From an uncultured bacterium (GTDB lineage Bacteria; GCA-001730085), in contig CAZMGY010000012.1 in NCBI GenBank assembly GCA_964565945.1, positions 107,778 to 139,777 of the forward strand: 32,000 nt of DNA, written 5' to 3'. Below the pieces are notes generated by a model. That model was not told the DNA's origin. It saw only the letters and a list, made by a program, of their open reading frames with translations, and searched no databases. Position 1 is the stretch's first letter, and each line of letters begins with the position of its first letter. A program made the position numbers and the translations under genes. Below are positions 23,601 through 25,641 of this stretch, piece after piece.

Positions 23601-25641
23601 AGGTGAATTAGAGCCGCCCCAGTCTTTTTATATGTCTCAAGTACAATTTAATCCCCATACGGGAGAACCTGTGTTGAATGCCATTCGTATGATTCAAAAA
23701 ATGCGTGAGTTGCGGTATGACAAAGAAAAGCCCTCTGACATTATCATTTTTGGAGAATTATCGCTAACGGGTTATGCTGTGGCGGATCTCTTTAATGATC
23801 CTCATTTTATGGAAGATGTTGTGATTGCTCAGCAAATGGTACGTGATGCGGCCAAAAAAATGGGTGTAGCTGTTCGATTGAGTATGCCCGTTCAAAATAA
23901 ACGCAAAACCGAAGTGACAGGAGGTAAAAGTAAGGCGATTGGTCTTTGGACCTATGTTCCCAAAGGACATGCCAAAATGCGTGCTTACGAGCACACACAG
24001 TATAAAGTGCTGCTCCCAACGTATAATGAGATGAATGAGTTTCGTTGGTTTAATCCAGGTGAACAAGATGACCTTAATATTCCAGTGGTTGATTTGATTA
24101 AGCCTGAATATACCAGTGAATCCTACAAAAATTGGGCCTGTGAAATTTGTGAGGATGGGTGGAATGGTGTGACAGTGGATCCCGATGAACGTATTTACCC
24201 TAACAATCCGACGGAGTTTGCTTACAAGAATGGGGCACAAATTTTGTTTAACCATTCGGCTAGTCCTTACTATTTAGGTAAATTCCGTAAAGCAACGGTG
24301 CCTACTTTTACTGATATCAGTCGTTTTTACAACCAACCGATGTTTTTCACCAATATTGTTGGTGAAGAAAATGGCGTATTCTTCGATGGCCAATCAATGG
24401 TGATCAATTCCCAAGGAGAGATTGTTTCTTTGCTTAAAGCTTTTGAAGAAGATGCGGTCACTTTTGATCTTAATCGTATTGATAAGATGACTCCTGTGAG
24501 CAAAAAAGAGCTAGATGAAAAGTTTGCTTGGGATCACAAGCAAGGTGTCGAAGAAAACCCTTGGGACGAAATGCTGCCTTTTAGCCGCCAGCATATTCGT
24601 GATTATGCACACAAAAGAGGGATGTGGAAGAACCCTTCCCTTAAGGTTTCTTTGAGCAAAAAAGATTTAGGCTTTTTTGCTCAGTCCAAACTTGTGAAGA
24701 AATATATTGATAATGTCGAACATCGATACAACAATGCACGTAAAGGGTTTGTGATGGAATTTGATGGAAGTCCTAATGCTGTTTTGGCAGCTAAGCTGTT
24801 GGGTAATGCTTTAAAAGGTGAGGTTTCTTTGGTGGCTGTTCTTCATATGGATGGTATCTCTGATAGGCTTAAAATGTACCAAAAACGCTTTTTGATAAAT
24901 CTTGGATTCCGTATAATCGACAACATTTACGAAAACTTGCGTATGGAGACTATGAAGCTAGCTAAGTCTGGCTTTGTTAGAGTATCGACATACAGCATGA
25001 ACGAGTTTTTGCTTGGTAGTCACGATGACGATAATAAGGCTTGGCCATTGCTTGCTTCGTTCACAGATACTCAAATACGGGACTTTTTGGACTATTTTGA
25101 TAAAACCACCCAAAGTGGTCAGTTGCCATACTTGCGATTGGATTCAAAAATCAAAGTTTTGTTTTCGGAACTTACCGATCATGTTTTAGAATGTATGATG
25201 CGTCACTCAAACCGTGGTTATCAATCGATCATTAGCAAATCTTACGAAAAGTCCATGGAGATTCTTAAAGAATTATCTACCTTAGTGATTGAGGTGAAAG
25301 ATGATAGTCCTTTTGCTCGTTTTAAAGATAGCTTAAATACTTTGGAAAAATGTGAAGATGTGTATGTACGTTTAATTCAAAAATTGGTCAGAGATATTGA
25401 GGCAACCGAAGGTTTGCGCAACCGTTTTAATTCAGTTCAGTACACTAAGAATTCCTCAACACTCCACAACCGCCCCCTAGGTGATCTTTGGATGGTGGAT
25501 CCAGACTTGCGCATTTTAGATGAATTTCGTAGCTACAAAAAAAAGCTAGAGGCAGAGAATGACTTGCAAATCCTGCGTCGTGTTTCACAAGCCTTCGATA
25601 TTTCTAGGGGAACATCCACACCTACTAACTATGCGGCCTAA
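20695..25641 (+). CDS. Giant (1648 aa) fusion protein: hydrophobic N-terminus, Lys-rich segment, ~20 TM helices in five repeats, unknown soluble region, C-N hydrolase (glutaminase) domain, and a degenerate NAD+ synthetase-like domain
   Basis: The ORF is uninterrupted. Residues ~980-1262 show NadE-type C-N hydrolase motifs: VQFNPHTGEP, IIIFGELSLTGY (Glu1021), YKVLLPTYNEMNEFRWFNPG (Lys1104), ACEICEDGW (Cys1152), FNHSASPY and VFFDGQSMVI. Residues ~1340-1648 are collinear with the NadE synthetase domain, but SGGxDS is replaced by FDGSPNA and TGNKSE by STYSMNE. Residues ~107-741 are almost entirely hydrophobic helices. Confidence 0.85.
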   Translation: MCYKNILSFIIVQFYLVGVWGEAHAYTSDTRSQVVQKIPDTLATPSLFAPHNIEAEVNALTSQALGAQSRKKKEISSKKKVNIKRSPKTRYQRGQVRSFAVINATQKVFFIILLFAAYWLITVSAWAPLGLLIVAALLLTPILASMVVKDKDIFAGFLIVVGLIVLGTGFALLPTVLPYIGMLIVAIGVIYYLQYMKTSHLIGESQAVNQDGLYEYSKKESLYESLAEPKDPMIPAISLIIEALLGAILLVGIHLFPIATLVAVVILGAILALGRSKDLSKIKKVYLVLAGICLLATVAVVMIPGVSLLWLLPPATGALTFLLGYIRVKGSEKFISDDLKKESEQLIDEALDINRRLPTGQERRLELIRTNIYRTLFNLVLIATVVWSLVALNWIAFLIILGAASMSFLAVQDQAKYIYGFMLVGAIAFGIVAAILLPMSYLMVAGAVFALTVLFWINHKDRDSSLEVNSNSHQIDALTSAMLRDGRRDFSKQPGKSYFAVRTAVTWENLLVAFLIAGVIWAINASLSWGLIPILFFVLLLAWEKVSNSQISMFYLLLVPASLIILGVGAVLASPVTIFIGITLFAMGGLFYVYDRQMGGQVTDPKEHPDNPLNNHLFFRVFRDGIREGQTTSGRLVAMGLIAGVILMGTLYWAMASTALTWMGFSVMPLLILVFILLFLPLLDRDQQARKAMKDYDKILLLFGAFVLIVGVIVSIDILMLMGGALLATALLYIVYRMKRDPDLKMDNKFKELQEYKPKGVVNRELVDIIDKPEKDNPSLQKVQHVIRGANRKALEHLQHKYRINSQEVEAYKDWGHHFPITEDSLVFAGEIGPIIVEGKKQRTFRFLPALGNGRISLNGDNPEHYVAGQEFVIGADDLSKKRVLYHDFWKGWFKLNHFKATEEQMKEYLLMWFKREAKYLQEIGDSKDYGQGLVFAGNIKGQVGEFILEGHENINAIQKAVHRRADKGGELEPPQSFYMSQVQFNPHTGEPVLNAIRMIQKMRELRYDKEKPSDIIIFGELSLTGYAVADLFNDPHFMEDVVIAQQMVRDAAKKMGVAVRLSMPVQNKRKTEVTGGKSKAIGLWTYVPKGHAKMRAYEHTQYKVLLPTYNEMNEFRWFNPGEQDDLNIPVVDLIKPEYTSESYKNWACEICEDGWNGVTVDPDERIYPNNPTEFAYKNGAQILFNHSASPYYLGKFRKATVPTFTDISRFYNQPMFFTNIVGEENGVFFDGQSMVINSQGEIVSLLKAFEEDAVTFDLNRIDKMTPVSKKELDEKFAWDHKQGVEENPWDEMLPFSRQHIRDYAHKRGMWKNPSLKVSLSKKDLGFFAQSKLVKKYIDNVEHRYNNARKGFVMEFDGSPNAVLAAKLLGNALKGEVSLVAVLHMDGISDRLKMYQKRFLINLGFRIIDNIYENLRMETMKLAKSGFVRVSTYSMNEFLLGSHDDDNKAWPLLASFTDTQIRDFLDYFDKTTQSGQLPYLRLDSKIKVLFSELTDHVLECMMRHSNRGYQSIISKSYEKSMEILKELSTLVIEVKDDSPFARFKDSLNTLEKCEDVYVRLIQKLVRDIEATEGLRNRFNSVQYTKNSSTLHNRPLGDLWMVDPDLRILDEFRSYKKKLEAENDLQILRRVSQAFDISRGTSTPTNYAA

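What the first reader, a model, noticed from the sequence alone, without database searches (positions are those of the whole stretch)
24742..25020. The synthetase half looks catalytically dead while the glutaminase triad is intact
In the C-N hydrolase block the Glu-Lys-Cys triad is present in its usual contexts: FGE(1021)LSLTGY, YK(1104)VLLPTYNEMNEFRWF and EIC(1152)EDGW. In the synthetase-like block the PP-loop is different. Canonical NadE reads G-L-S-G-G-x-D-S-A, but this protein reads M-E-F-D-G-S-P-N-A (codons 24754-24780), keeping only one Gly. The TGNKSE substrate/ATP motif reads STYSMNE (~24985-25005). That pattern, with an active amidase and a degenerate ATP pyrophosphatase site, is what a pseudoenzyme scaffold or a repurposed domain would show, not a working NAD+ synthetase.
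Basis: partly seen in the sequence, partly recalled or inferred. Interest (0 to 1): 0.7.

Follow-up and report, generated by a model that had tools for sequence, protein, structure and literature searches.

The report
Membrane-anchored NadE relic with dead synthetase
A giant membrane protein of an uncultured bacterium ends in a copy of the NAD+-making enzyme NadE whose ammonia-releasing half looks intact but whose ATP-using half has lost its catalytic signature, so it is very unlikely still to make NAD+.

Summary
ORF 20695-25641 (+) encodes a 1648-aa protein. It has a signal-like N-terminus, 20 membrane helices arranged as ten hairpins, an unassigned middle region, and a C-terminal 690 aa derived from glutamine-dependent NAD+ synthetase (NadE).

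The glutaminase half (nitrilase superfamily) keeps the full tetrad E1021/K1104/E1115/C1152 and 39 of 49 near-invariant NadE positions. The synthetase half keeps only 25 of 86. It matches no NAD_synthase model. It has no SGGxDS-like, Walker A or TGNKSE-like motif anywhere, whereas SGGxDS is present in 119/119 NadE homologues.

AlphaFold models still give it an NAD-synthetase/PP-loop-ATPase-like fold. It is as conserved as the hydrolase half (31-32% against 34%) in the only other family member, a 1515-aa hypothetical protein of a PVC-superphylum bacterium from the bryozoan Bugula. It is therefore a maintained pseudoenzyme domain, not decay.

Where the PP-loop equivalent lies is ambiguous. Profile alignments and collinearity put it at S1319-S1331. 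Neither segment is a functional fingerprint.

This is a new variant of a known family, of moderate interest. No activity has been measured.

The parts
20695..25641 (+). Whole gene: 1648-aa protein (= P0122; strain variants P0121 and P0123 are >99% identical)
   Evidence: ORF list and translation. The same 1648-aa product is called on independent assemblies (NCBI contig of 139,777 bp; Logan runs SRR19984991, SRR30621489, SRR30680197) with the same neighbours. A full-length homologue, P0124, has the same architecture.
20695..20775 (+). Signal-peptide-like or signal-anchor N-terminus (MCYKNILSFIIVQFYLVGVWGEAHA|YT)
   Evidence: Read directly from the sequence. P0124 has an analogous N-terminus. 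No signal-peptide predictor was available.
20899..20988 (+). Strongly basic stretch (13 K/R in 30 aa) before the first membrane helix
21016..22902 (+). Membrane domain, aa 108-736: 20 hydrophobic helices forming 10 tight hairpins, arranged as 5 weakly similar repeats of about 130 aa
   Evidence: Hydropathy scan. Turns on one face are 1-7 aa long and carry 0 K/R. The other face carries 47 K/R and is continuous with the C-terminal module. Repeat units are similar at E 3e-4 to 3e-2. No family hit.
22930..23619 (+). Middle soluble region, aa 746-975, unassigned
   Evidence: No Pfam or PDB sequence match. 20% identical to P0124.
23620..24480 (+). NadE-type glutaminase (CN-hydrolase / nitrilase-superfamily) domain, aa 976-1262. 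Catalytic tetrad E1021 (23755-23757), K1104 (24004-24006), E1115 (24037-24039), C1152 (24148-24150)
   Evidence: Pfam PF00795 at 33.5 bits (cut-off 23.2). NCBIfam PRK13981 E 6.5e-33. NadE HMM 172 bits. PDB NadE 5kha, 4f4h, 3n05. AF2 pLDDT 85-97. 39/49 near-invariant NadE columns kept.
24562..24624 (+). Inter-domain helix (..FSRQHIRDYAHKRGM), the conserved 'lrDYarkcGf' helix that opens the NadE synthetase domain
   Evidence: The HMM alignment runs through it. AF2 models a helix at aa 1290-1307, pLDDT 76-86.
24649..24687 (+). Register A candidate for the PP-loop position: S1319-L-S-K-K-D-L-G-F-F-A-Q-S1331 (P0124: P-L-S-S-E-H-R-S)
   Evidence: hhalign, BLASTP, MAFFT and anchored global alignment. 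P0124 is collinear with canonical NadE to within one residue in this register (my count on the alignments). The segment is poorly conserved in the family (19%) and is coil with pLDDT <50-61 in AF2 run 1.
24754..24780 (+).
   Evidence: hhalign alternative alignment. Ungapped PSSM z of about 4.5 at a nearby offset. The block GF[VL][MI]EFxGxxN[AS]xLxA is conserved in the family. AF2 with a register-B alignment gives the core pLDDT of about 81 against about 59.
24985..25005 (+). STYSMNE, the equivalent of the T-T-G-N-K-S-E strand/loop. Only T1432 and E1437 are kept; Asn and Lys are lost
   Evidence: hhalign local hit over aa 1424-1472, E 0.005. BLASTP against the P0001 C-domain, E 0.001. Per-column table.
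25042..25074 (+). WPLLASFTDTQ, the best-conserved family block. Equivalent to 'glavIgDlyKTeV'; shared as PLIAS with the divergent canonical NadE P0001
25111..25494 (+). Helical C-terminal subdomain, aa 1473-1600. SAEL, LPPY and EYKR motifs are mostly lost; E1572 is kept
   Evidence: AF2 pLDDT 74-92. Per-column tables. 32% identical to P0124.
25495..25641 (+). Low-confidence tail, aa 1601-1648, plus the stop codon
   Evidence: pLDDT <50. Largely absent from P0124.

Best explanation
The last ~690 aa of this membrane protein are a diverged paralogue of two-domain, glutamine-dependent NAD+ synthetase that has been turned into a membrane-tethered amidohydrolase with a pseudo-synthetase partner domain.

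Shown by sequence: the nitrilase-type half keeps the Cys-Glu-Glu-Lys tetrad and most NadE-specific pocket motifs (LPTY, CED, SASP..K).

Inferred: it can still form the thioester intermediate and hydrolyse glutamine or a closely similar amide, releasing ammonia.

Shown: the second half has lost the ATP-pyrophosphatase fingerprint and about 70-80% of the positions that bind ATP, Mg2+ and NaAD. Modelled: it keeps the NadE-like alpha/beta fold. Inferred: it cannot adenylate NaAD.

Shown: it remains under the same constraint as the hydrolase half. Inferred: the reason is that in NadE the synthetase domain packs against the glutaminase domain, shapes the glutamine/ammonia tunnel and mediates oligomerisation, so it survives as a structural or regulatory scaffold.

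Inferred from charge distribution: ten membrane hairpins hold the module at one face of a membrane, most likely the cytoplasmic face.

The protein is not the cell's NAD+ synthetase.
For: Hydrolase half intact:
- Pfam, NCBIfam and a custom NadE HMM all hit it.
- The tetrad is aligned and invariant in both family members. The roles of these residues are described in PMC6946656.
- 39/49 near-invariant NadE columns are kept.
- AF2 pLDDT is 85-97.

Synthetase half dead:
- No PF02540 or TIGR00552 match, even at E<=10.
- No canonical NadE among 1.84e9 representatives.
- No SGGxDS, relaxed PP-loop, Walker A or TGNKSE motif, against 119/119 for SGG.DS in NadE homologues.
- Only 25/86 near-invariant columns are kept (alignment A2) or 16/60 (alignment A4). 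Fisher p is about 1e-8.
- SGGXDST is the defining N-type ATP-pyrophosphatase motif, and a point mutation in it cripples NADS (PMC3376133).

Still a NadE-derived, maintained domain:
- The HMM alignment runs into the RDYA.K.G helix.
- Local similarity at strand b4 and the PLLAS block.
- Foldseek of the two-domain model aligns 600-690 columns with 5kha, 4f4h and 3n05. TMq is 0.47-0.52, against 0.31 for hydrolase-only hits.
- The domain-only model hits only NAD synthetases first, then other PP-loop ATPases.
- Identity between family members is 31-32% in this half and 34% in the hydrolase half.

Real gene: independent assemblies and a second species share the architecture.
Against: - No activity data exist. 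In M. tuberculosis NadE the glutaminase is weak until the synthetase site is occupied (12- to 44-fold activation, PMC6946656). A glutaminase uncoupled from a live synthetase site could therefore be slow, or need another activator.
- The fold evidence comes from AlphaFold runs whose alignments were made of NadE sequences, so it is partly circular. Domain-level Foldseek scores are weak (E 3e-3, TMq 0.41-0.45).
- If register B is right, the strand-loop-helix block EFxGxxN[AS] is conserved in the family. That could mean a new ligand site rather than a mere scaffold.
- Substrate specificity (glutamine or another amide) is not established.
- Topology is ambiguous. The positive-inside rule puts the module in the cytoplasm. 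The conserved signal-peptide-like N-terminus followed by an even number of helices would put it outside.
Confidence: 0.7

Rival explanations
1. The hydrolase works on something other than free glutamine, for example an amidated cell-envelope or lipid-linked molecule, a protein Gln/Asn side chain, or an acyl-transfer reaction like that of Lnt. The degenerate synthetase-like domain would be a repurposed substrate- or ligand-binding module, possibly using the conserved EFxGxxN[AS] loop. The membrane array would position the enzyme at its substrate.
For: The module is fused to a 20-helix membrane domain, and all soluble parts face one side. The register-B block is conserved between both family members and is modelled with pLDDT 80-90. 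The nitrilase superfamily includes membrane-bound acyltransferases (Lnt; established knowledge).
Against: The hydrolase half is specifically NadE-like (PRK13981 E 6.5e-33; the next CN-hydrolase family is at E 0.09). It keeps the NadE pocket motifs. No Lnt or other family signal was found. No candidate substrate can be read from the gene neighbourhood (recA, yebC, ruvCA), and the P0124 locus is not syntenic.
Confidence: 0.2
2. The whole C-terminal module is non-catalytic. Both halves would be pseudoenzymes serving as a protein-interaction or oligomerisation platform on a structural membrane protein. The tetrad would be retained by structural inertia.
For: The partner site that normally activates the glutaminase is gone (PMC6946656). 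P0124 keeps fewer near-invariant hydrolase columns (32/49).
Against: All four catalytic residues and their flanking motifs are invariant across two proteins that are otherwise only 34% identical in this domain. In dead nitrilase-fold proteins the Cys is usually among the first residues to be replaced (general knowledge, not tested here).
Confidence: 0.07
3. It is still an NAD+ (or NMN or other) synthetase that binds ATP through a non-canonical loop.
For: The AANH-like fold is retained in the models. E1437/D1445 (target) and one Gly of the loop align with canonical Mg/ATP-region residues.
Against: No PP-loop exists in either register. The ENLQARxR and SAEL elements, and the Asn and Lys of TGNKSE, are lost. 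The residues that are retained differ between the two family members. The motif is 100% conserved in 119 homologues.
Confidence: 0.03
4. Artefact: a pseudogene, a frameshift fusion or a chimeric assembly.
For: None found.
Against: The open frame is uninterrupted over 4947 nt. Identical architecture appears in at least 4 independent assemblies. A 25%-identical full-length homologue exists in another organism.
Confidence: 0.01

Closest known systems
Two-domain glutamine-dependent NAD+ synthetase (NadE/NADS 'type F'; NCBIfam PRK13981 group; structures 5KHA, 4F4H, 3N05; more distantly M. tuberculosis 3DLA and human 6OFB)
   Same: Same domain order (nitrilase-type glutaminase, linker helix, then synthetase-fold domain). 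C-E-E-K tetrad and NadE-specific glutaminase motifs are present. These are the best sequence, profile and structural matches.
   Different: No SGGxDS, TGNKSE, ENLQARxR or SAEL motif. It fails every NAD_synthase model and curated cut-off. It is preceded by ~975 extra residues including 20 membrane helices. About 1650 aa against ~550-700 aa.
P0001 (586 aa, Logan SRR22388068; chromosomal nadE next to gidAB/parAB/dnaA), the nearest canonical relative found
   Same: 29% identity over 71% of the module. It shares the family-specific variants LFGEL, NRWF.PGE, ICEDGWN and PL(L/I)AS.
   Different: It keeps SGGKDS and passes TIGR00552 (124 bits against 63.65). It has no membrane domain. It already has TTNFSE in place of TGNKSE, so it may resemble the ancestor of the dead branch.
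P0124 = OED36561.1, hypothetical protein AB834_02995, 'PVC group bacterium (ex Bugula neritina AB1)' (bin AB1_div, candidate division NPL-UPA2; PMC5041132)
   Same: The only other member of the family: same full-length architecture, same intact tetrad, same missing fingerprint.
   Different: 25% identity overall. 12-aa shorter between the linker helix and GF(L/V)(I/M)EF. Different gene neighbourhood.
Apolipoprotein N-acyltransferase Lnt (polytopic membrane domain plus CN-hydrolase domain)
   Same: A nitrilase-superfamily Cys-Glu-Lys domain attached to a multi-helix membrane anchor.
   Different: A different CN-hydrolase branch, with no sequence-family signal here. In Lnt the hydrolase domain is periplasmic and inserted between helices (established knowledge). 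Lnt has no NadE-like second domain.
Chlamydial inclusion-membrane (Inc) proteins
   Same: Their hallmark 'bilobed' hydrophobic unit is two helices joined by a very short turn, with both flanks on one side (PMC3048545 and PMC3290821, abstracts). That is the unit repeated ten times here. The only relative comes from a PVC-superphylum, animal-associated bacterium.
   Different: Incs typically have one or two such units, not ten. Nothing is known about type III secretion here. The N-terminus looks Sec-like. The organism is not shown to be a chlamydia or to be intracellular.

Membership tests
Glutamine-dependent NAD+ synthetase (NadE, two-domain) | N-terminal nitrilase-type glutaminase domain with a Cys-Glu-Lys triad (plus a second Glu) | tested here: met
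   E1021, K1104, E1115 and C1152 align to the catalytic columns. PF00795 scores above its gathering cut-off.
Glutamine-dependent NAD+ synthetase (NadE, two-domain) | ATP-pyrophosphatase fingerprint SGGxDS(T) in the synthetase domain | tested here: not met
   No strict or relaxed match anywhere. The aligned segments read SLSKKDLG (register A) or DGSPNA (register B). The motif is present in 119/119 homologues.
Glutamine-dependent NAD+ synthetase (NadE, two-domain) | Other ATP/Mg/NaAD-binding motifs (ENLQARxR, TGNKSE, YGD, SAEL, EYKR) | tested here: not met
   Only T1432, E1437, D1445 and E1572 survive in the target, and fewer in P0124. 16/60 or 25/86 near-invariant columns are kept.
Glutamine-dependent NAD+ synthetase (NadE, two-domain) | Passes the curated family models (NCBIfam PRK13981 >=479 bits; TIGR00552 / Pfam PF02540 on the synthetase domain) | tested here: not met
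   PRK13981 scores 114 bits and covers only profile positions 7-285 of 546. No PF02540 or TIGR00552 hit, even at E<=10.
Glutamine-dependent NAD+ synthetase (NadE, two-domain) | Catalyses NaAD + ATP + Gln to NAD+ | not testable with these tools
   Requires enzymology or complementation.
Nitrilase superfamily (CN_hydrolase, PF00795) | Alpha-beta-beta-alpha fold with a Glu-Lys-Cys triad; Pfam gathering score | tested here: met
   33.5 bits against 23.2. AF2 pLDDT 85-97. Foldseek hits to amidases and NadE at E 1e-13 to 1e-20.
PP-loop ATP pyrophosphatases (adenine nucleotide alpha-hydrolase fold) | Rossmann-like alpha/beta fold | tested here: inconclusive
   The domain-only AF2 model (pLDDT 78) retrieves only NAD synthetases, then NcsA, TilS, GuaA, ArgG and TtuA. 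Scores are weak (E 3e-3 to 0.25, TMq <=0.45), and the model was built with a NadE alignment.
PP-loop ATP pyrophosphatases (adenine nucleotide alpha-hydrolase fold) | PP-loop SGGxDS after strand b1 | tested here: not met
Chlamydial Inc proteins | Bilobed hydrophobic domain (two helices, short turn) | tested here: met
   Ten such hairpins, with turns of 1-7 uncharged residues. This is a resemblance of form only.
Chlamydial Inc proteins | Encoded by a member of the Chlamydiae; type III secreted; located in an inclusion membrane | not testable with these tools
   The organism is unidentified (RecA <=68% identical to anything in the GTDB representatives). The only relative is from a non-chlamydial PVC lineage.
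Apolipoprotein N-acyltransferase (Lnt) | Lnt family model match; CN-hydrolase domain inserted in an 8-helix membrane domain | tested here: not met
   No Lnt model among the NCBIfam or Pfam hits. The hydrolase follows the membrane domain rather than being inserted in it.

The most novel reading that the evidence does not exclude
The protein founds an undescribed class: a hairpin-array membrane scaffold (ten Inc-like bilobed units) from host-associated, deep-branching PVC-type bacteria. It would display an ATP-independent, NadE-derived glutaminase/amidase on one membrane face. The former synthetase domain would be rewired into a new ligand-sensing or partner-binding site (the conserved EFxGxxN[AS] loop). 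It could act at a host-symbiont interface, or outside the cytoplasm where ATP is absent, which would explain why the ATP site was discarded.
Probability: 0.1. Interest if true: 0.75.

Novelty: new variant of a known kind. Interest (0 to 1): 0.5.

Why it matters
Automatic annotation could be led by the NadE-like half to call this gene an NAD+ synthase. [quoted passage not shown]

I found no earlier description of a two-domain NadE in which the coupled glutaminase-synthetase pair has been uncoupled by killing the ATP site while both domains stay under selection. The papers I read hold none, and one keyword search returned nothing. That makes it a natural experiment on what the synthetase domain does for the glutaminase besides chemistry: tunnel, allostery and oligomerisation. 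It is also a clean pseudoenzyme case for the nitrilase/PP-loop field.

The ten-hairpin membrane array has no annotated relatives at all.

Tried and rejected
1. Looked for a proper PP-loop elsewhere, using regexes on both family members, hhalign alternatives, PSSM sliding and anchored global alignment. None was found.

2. Tried to settle the alignment register by sequence.
- Anchored alignments score <=0 under normal gap costs.
- A b1-b3 sub-HMM gives no significant hit.
- PSSM sliding favours a B-like offset for the target (z of about 4.5) but register A, not significantly, for P0124.
- The question is left open at roughly 55-60% for B.

3. Searched for more family members.
- Three searches of the 5.8-billion-protein set. 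The third, with the family profile, returned only self.
- The GTDB-representative genomes gave none.
- The JGI metagenomes gave only ordinary NadE-type hydrolases at about 26% identity.

4. Tried to name the organism.
- RecA is <=68% identical to a phylogenetic mixture.
- There are no rRNA, tRNA or Rfam hits in the window.
- Accession searches in the paper library found nothing.

5. Anti-phage defence idea (NAD-related): no PADLOC hit for the gene, its orphan neighbours or P0124. Rejected.

6. A canonical nadE elsewhere in the window: none by tblastn or six-frame HMM. The rest of the genome is not available.

7. The middle region aa 746-975 and the N-terminal 100 aa have no Pfam or PDB sequence match.

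8. Inc-like hairpins in the neighbouring orphan proteins: each has only a single N-terminal hydrophobic segment.

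
Full report
**What is at the coordinates.** The finding lies inside one long gene, 20695-25641 on the + strand, encoding 1648 aa.
- Codons 24754-24780 read MEFDGSPNA and codons 24985-25005 read STYSMNE.
- The gene is real. The same 1648-aa product, with at most two substitutions, is called on an NCBI contig of 139,777 bp and on Logan assemblies of at least three sequencing runs, always in the order PNPOx, YgjP, 1020-aa orphan, recA, this gene, 600-aa orphan (-), yebC, ruvC, ruvA.

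**Architecture.** Pfam sees only a CN-hydrolase domain at aa 1010-1260. NCBIfam's NAD+ synthase model PRK13981 matches strongly (E 6.5e-33) but only over profile positions 7-285 of 546. That is the glutaminase half, at 114 bits against a cut-off of 479.

Upstream of it, the protein has four parts.
- A signal-peptide-like N-terminus.
- A 30-aa stretch with 13 Lys/Arg.
- Twenty hydrophobic helices that form ten tight hairpins. The turns on one face are 1-7 residues long and carry no Lys/Arg at all. The other face carries 47 Lys/Arg and is continuous with the C-terminal module. The hairpins fall into five weakly similar repeats of about 130 aa.
- A 230-aa middle region that matches nothing.

**The glutaminase half is a well-preserved NadE glutaminase.**
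- A profile HMM built from 119 two-domain NadE homologues aligns aa 982-1310 at 172 bits (E 6e-55). It places E1021, K1104 and C1152 on the catalytic columns.
- The second glutamate of the C-E-E-K tetrad is E1115. Its equivalent in M. tuberculosis NadE, Glu132, positions the catalytic Lys and the YRE loop (PMC6946656).
- Of the 49 alignment columns that are at least 90% conserved in NadE glutaminase domains, the protein keeps 39.
- AlphaFold2 models this half at pLDDT 85-97.

**The synthetase half is degenerate.**
- No NAD_synthase model (PF02540, TIGR00552, PRK13980) matches it, even when the domain is scanned alone at E<=10.
- phmmer against PDB sequences stops at the end of the glutaminase half.
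- An exhaustive phmmer of aa 1261-1648 against 1.84 billion representative proteins returns only the protein itself and one other protein, and no canonical NadE.
- Regular expressions for SGGxDS, relaxed PP-loops, Walker A or TGNKSE find nothing in the whole protein. SGG.DS is present in 119/119 NadE homologues and NKSE in 113/119.
- Only 25 of 86 near-invariant synthetase-half columns are retained (16 of 60 in a second alignment). This differs from the glutaminase half at p of about 1e-8.
- SGGXDST is the defining motif of N-type ATP pyrophosphatases, and a point mutation in it impairs NAD synthetase (PMC3376133).

**It is nevertheless a NadE-derived domain, and it is maintained.**
- The HMM alignment continues through the helix IRDYAHKRGM, which opens the canonical synthetase domain.
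- A local profile-profile match (E 0.005) and BLASTP to the C-domain of the nearest canonical NadE, P0001 (E 0.001), cover aa 1424-1472. There STYSMNE aligns with TTGNKSE and WPLLASFTDTQ with GLavIGDLyKTeV.
- The two-domain AlphaFold model aligns over 600-690 columns with the NadE structures 5KHA, 4F4H and 3N05. TMq is 0.47-0.52, against 0.31 for hits that cover only the hydrolase.
- A domain-only model retrieves only NAD synthetases first and then other PP-loop ATPases: NcsA, TilS, GMP synthetase, argininosuccinate synthase and TtuA. The scores are weak (E 3e-3 to 0.25; TMq <=0.45). These models used NadE-containing alignments, so this is supporting evidence, not independent proof.
- The one other family member is P0124 (1515 aa, 25% identical over 1615 aa). 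It has the same architecture, the same intact tetrad and the same missing motifs.
- Region by region, the two proteins are 34% identical in the hydrolase domain, 31% in the core of the dead domain and 32% in its helical subdomain. The dead half is therefore conserved as strongly as the live one. That is the signature of a pseudoenzyme domain, not of decay.

**Where the PP-loop 'was'.**

Register A has the following support.
- hhalign, BLASTP against P0001, MAFFT and anchored global alignment all put the G-L-S-G-G-x-D-S columns on S1319-L-S-K-K-(DLGFF)-A-Q-S1331.
- In this register P0124 is collinear with canonical NadE to within one residue from the RDYA helix to TGNKSE, and reads P-L-S-S-E-H-R-S.
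- GFVMEF then becomes strand b2.

- It is hhalign's alternative alignment.
- GF[VL][MI]EFxGxxN[AS]xLxA is the best-conserved block of this region in the family, whereas aa 1310-1350 are the worst (19%, with a 12-aa indel).
- AlphaFold never builds a strand at LKVSLS.
- With an alignment forced into register B, AlphaFold models a regular b-a-b-a-b-a-b core at pLDDT of about 81. With the register-A-like alignment the same residues score about 59.

Anchored alignments score <=0 either way. I rate B slightly more likely (about 55-60%). The conclusion does not depend on the choice. In A the loop is SKKDLG (target) or SSEHRS (P0124). In B it is DGSPNA or TGDQNS. Neither can provide the Ser/Gly amide cradle and the Asp that bind PPi-Mg.

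**Origin and distribution.**
- P0124 is OED36561.1, 'hypothetical protein AB834_02995', from 'PVC group bacterium (ex Bugula neritina AB1)'. This is the bin AB1_div, a deep-branching lineage (candidate division NPL-UPA2) in the PVC superphylum recovered from a bryozoan (PMC5041132).
- Its locus (trpS, scpAB, pheA, tyrA, aroA, cmk) is not syntenic with the window.
- The window's own organism could not be named. RecA is at most 68% identical to anything among 185,579 species representatives, and the window holds no RNA genes.
- No further members turned up in the GTDB representatives, the JGI metagenomes or the 5.8-billion-protein set.
- The closest canonical enzyme, P0001, sits in a housekeeping locus next to gidAB, parAB and dnaA. 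It keeps SGGKDS but already has TTNFSE and PLIAS. It looks like the kind of NadE from which the dead branch arose.

**Mechanism proposed.**
- Shown: the catalytic tetrad is intact, the ATP/NaAD apparatus is lost, both halves are equally constrained, and all soluble parts lie on one membrane face.
- Inferred: the hydrolase still forms a Cys1152 thioester and deamidates glutamine or a similar amide. The former synthetase domain no longer adenylates anything. It is kept because it buttresses the hydrolase (tunnel wall, oligomer interface), or because it has been re-used as a binding or regulatory domain.
- Caveat: in M. tuberculosis NadE the glutaminase is activated 12- to 44-fold by occupancy of the synthetase site (PMC6946656). 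An uncoupled glutaminase may therefore be slow, or may be controlled in a new way.
- Location: the charge asymmetry (47 against 0 Lys/Arg) argues for the cytoplasmic face. The conserved Sec-like N-terminus followed by an even number of helices argues the opposite. If the module were outside the cytoplasm, loss of an ATP site would be expected. This is unresolved.

**Comparison and verdict.** It works like the glutaminase component of NadE. It is a member of the nitrilase superfamily. It is not a member of the NAD+ synthetase family in the functional sense, because the defining fingerprint and all curated models fail. It resembles Lnt only in the idea of a CN-hydrolase on a polytopic anchor, and chlamydial Inc proteins only in the shape of its hairpins.

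No defence-system signal was found, and there is no second nadE in the window.

I classify it as a new variant of a known kind. Interest is moderate (0.5). It is a clean and previously unannotated pseudoenzyme case with an unusual membrane scaffold. But it is confined to two uncultured lineages and is so far supported only in silico.

Noticed in passing
window 21016-22902 (aa 108-736 of the same gene): The membrane domain consists of ten two-helix hairpins. Their far-side turns are 1-7 uncharged residues (P, PT, P, PGVS, N, PMS, NASLS, SP, STALTWM, DI), and every charged loop lies on the other side (47 K/R against 0). The hairpins fall into five weakly similar repeats of about 130 aa, and the long inter-repeat loops after repeats 3 and 4 carry an xRDG[RI]R motif. 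The unit looks like the 'bilobed hydrophobic domain' of chlamydial Inc proteins, but no family matches.
   Followed up: partly
window 20695-20775 and 20899-20988: A Sec-signal-like N-terminus (also present in P0124) is followed by a very basic stretch and an even number of helices. The signal peptide and the positive-inside rule predict opposite locations for the C-terminal module.
   Followed up: partly
window 16274-19336 (+), 25662-27464 (-), 29495-32000 (+, runs off the window): Three large ORFs (1020 aa, 600 aa, >835 aa) have no Pfam, NCBIfam or PADLOC match. Each has a single N-terminal hydrophobic segment. They are interleaved with housekeeping genes (recA, yebC-ruvC-ruvA). The organism seems rich in large orphan membrane-anchored or secreted proteins.
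   Followed up: partly
window 28284-29356 and downstream: ruvC and ruvA overlap, but ruvA is followed by a large orphan ORF rather than ruvB.
   Followed up: no
window 6111-8731 (-): Two adjacent, overlapping GAF-GGDEF diguanylate-cyclase genes (399 and 477 aa) lie next to an ABC importer (MalK-type ATPase at 8773-9939, two permeases at 3507-5417).
   Followed up: no
window 19442-20503 (recA): RecA is at most 68% identical to any of the 80 best loci listed (599 relatives confirmed) in one-genome-per-species GTDB r232, and the best hits are a mixture of phyla (Nitrospira, Bacillota, Rickettsiales, Gammaproteobacteria). Proteins of this window form clusters containing only this species. The lineage has no close sequenced relatives in the collections searched.
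   Followed up: partly
P0001 / locus L112 10001-11761: The nearest canonical NadE is itself atypical. It scores 354 bits against a cut-off of 479 on PRK13981, has TTNFSE instead of TGNKSE and PLIAS instead of IGDL.K, but has an intact SGGKDS. It may be an intermediate form between ordinary NadE and the dead-synthetase family.
   Followed up: partly
tool behaviour: The word-indexed protein search with the C-terminal 688 aa did not return the protein itself or P0124. The N-terminal query did return the protein. The family-profile query returned only self. Negative results from that tool for this family should not be over-read. The exhaustive search is the one that counts.
   Followed up: yes
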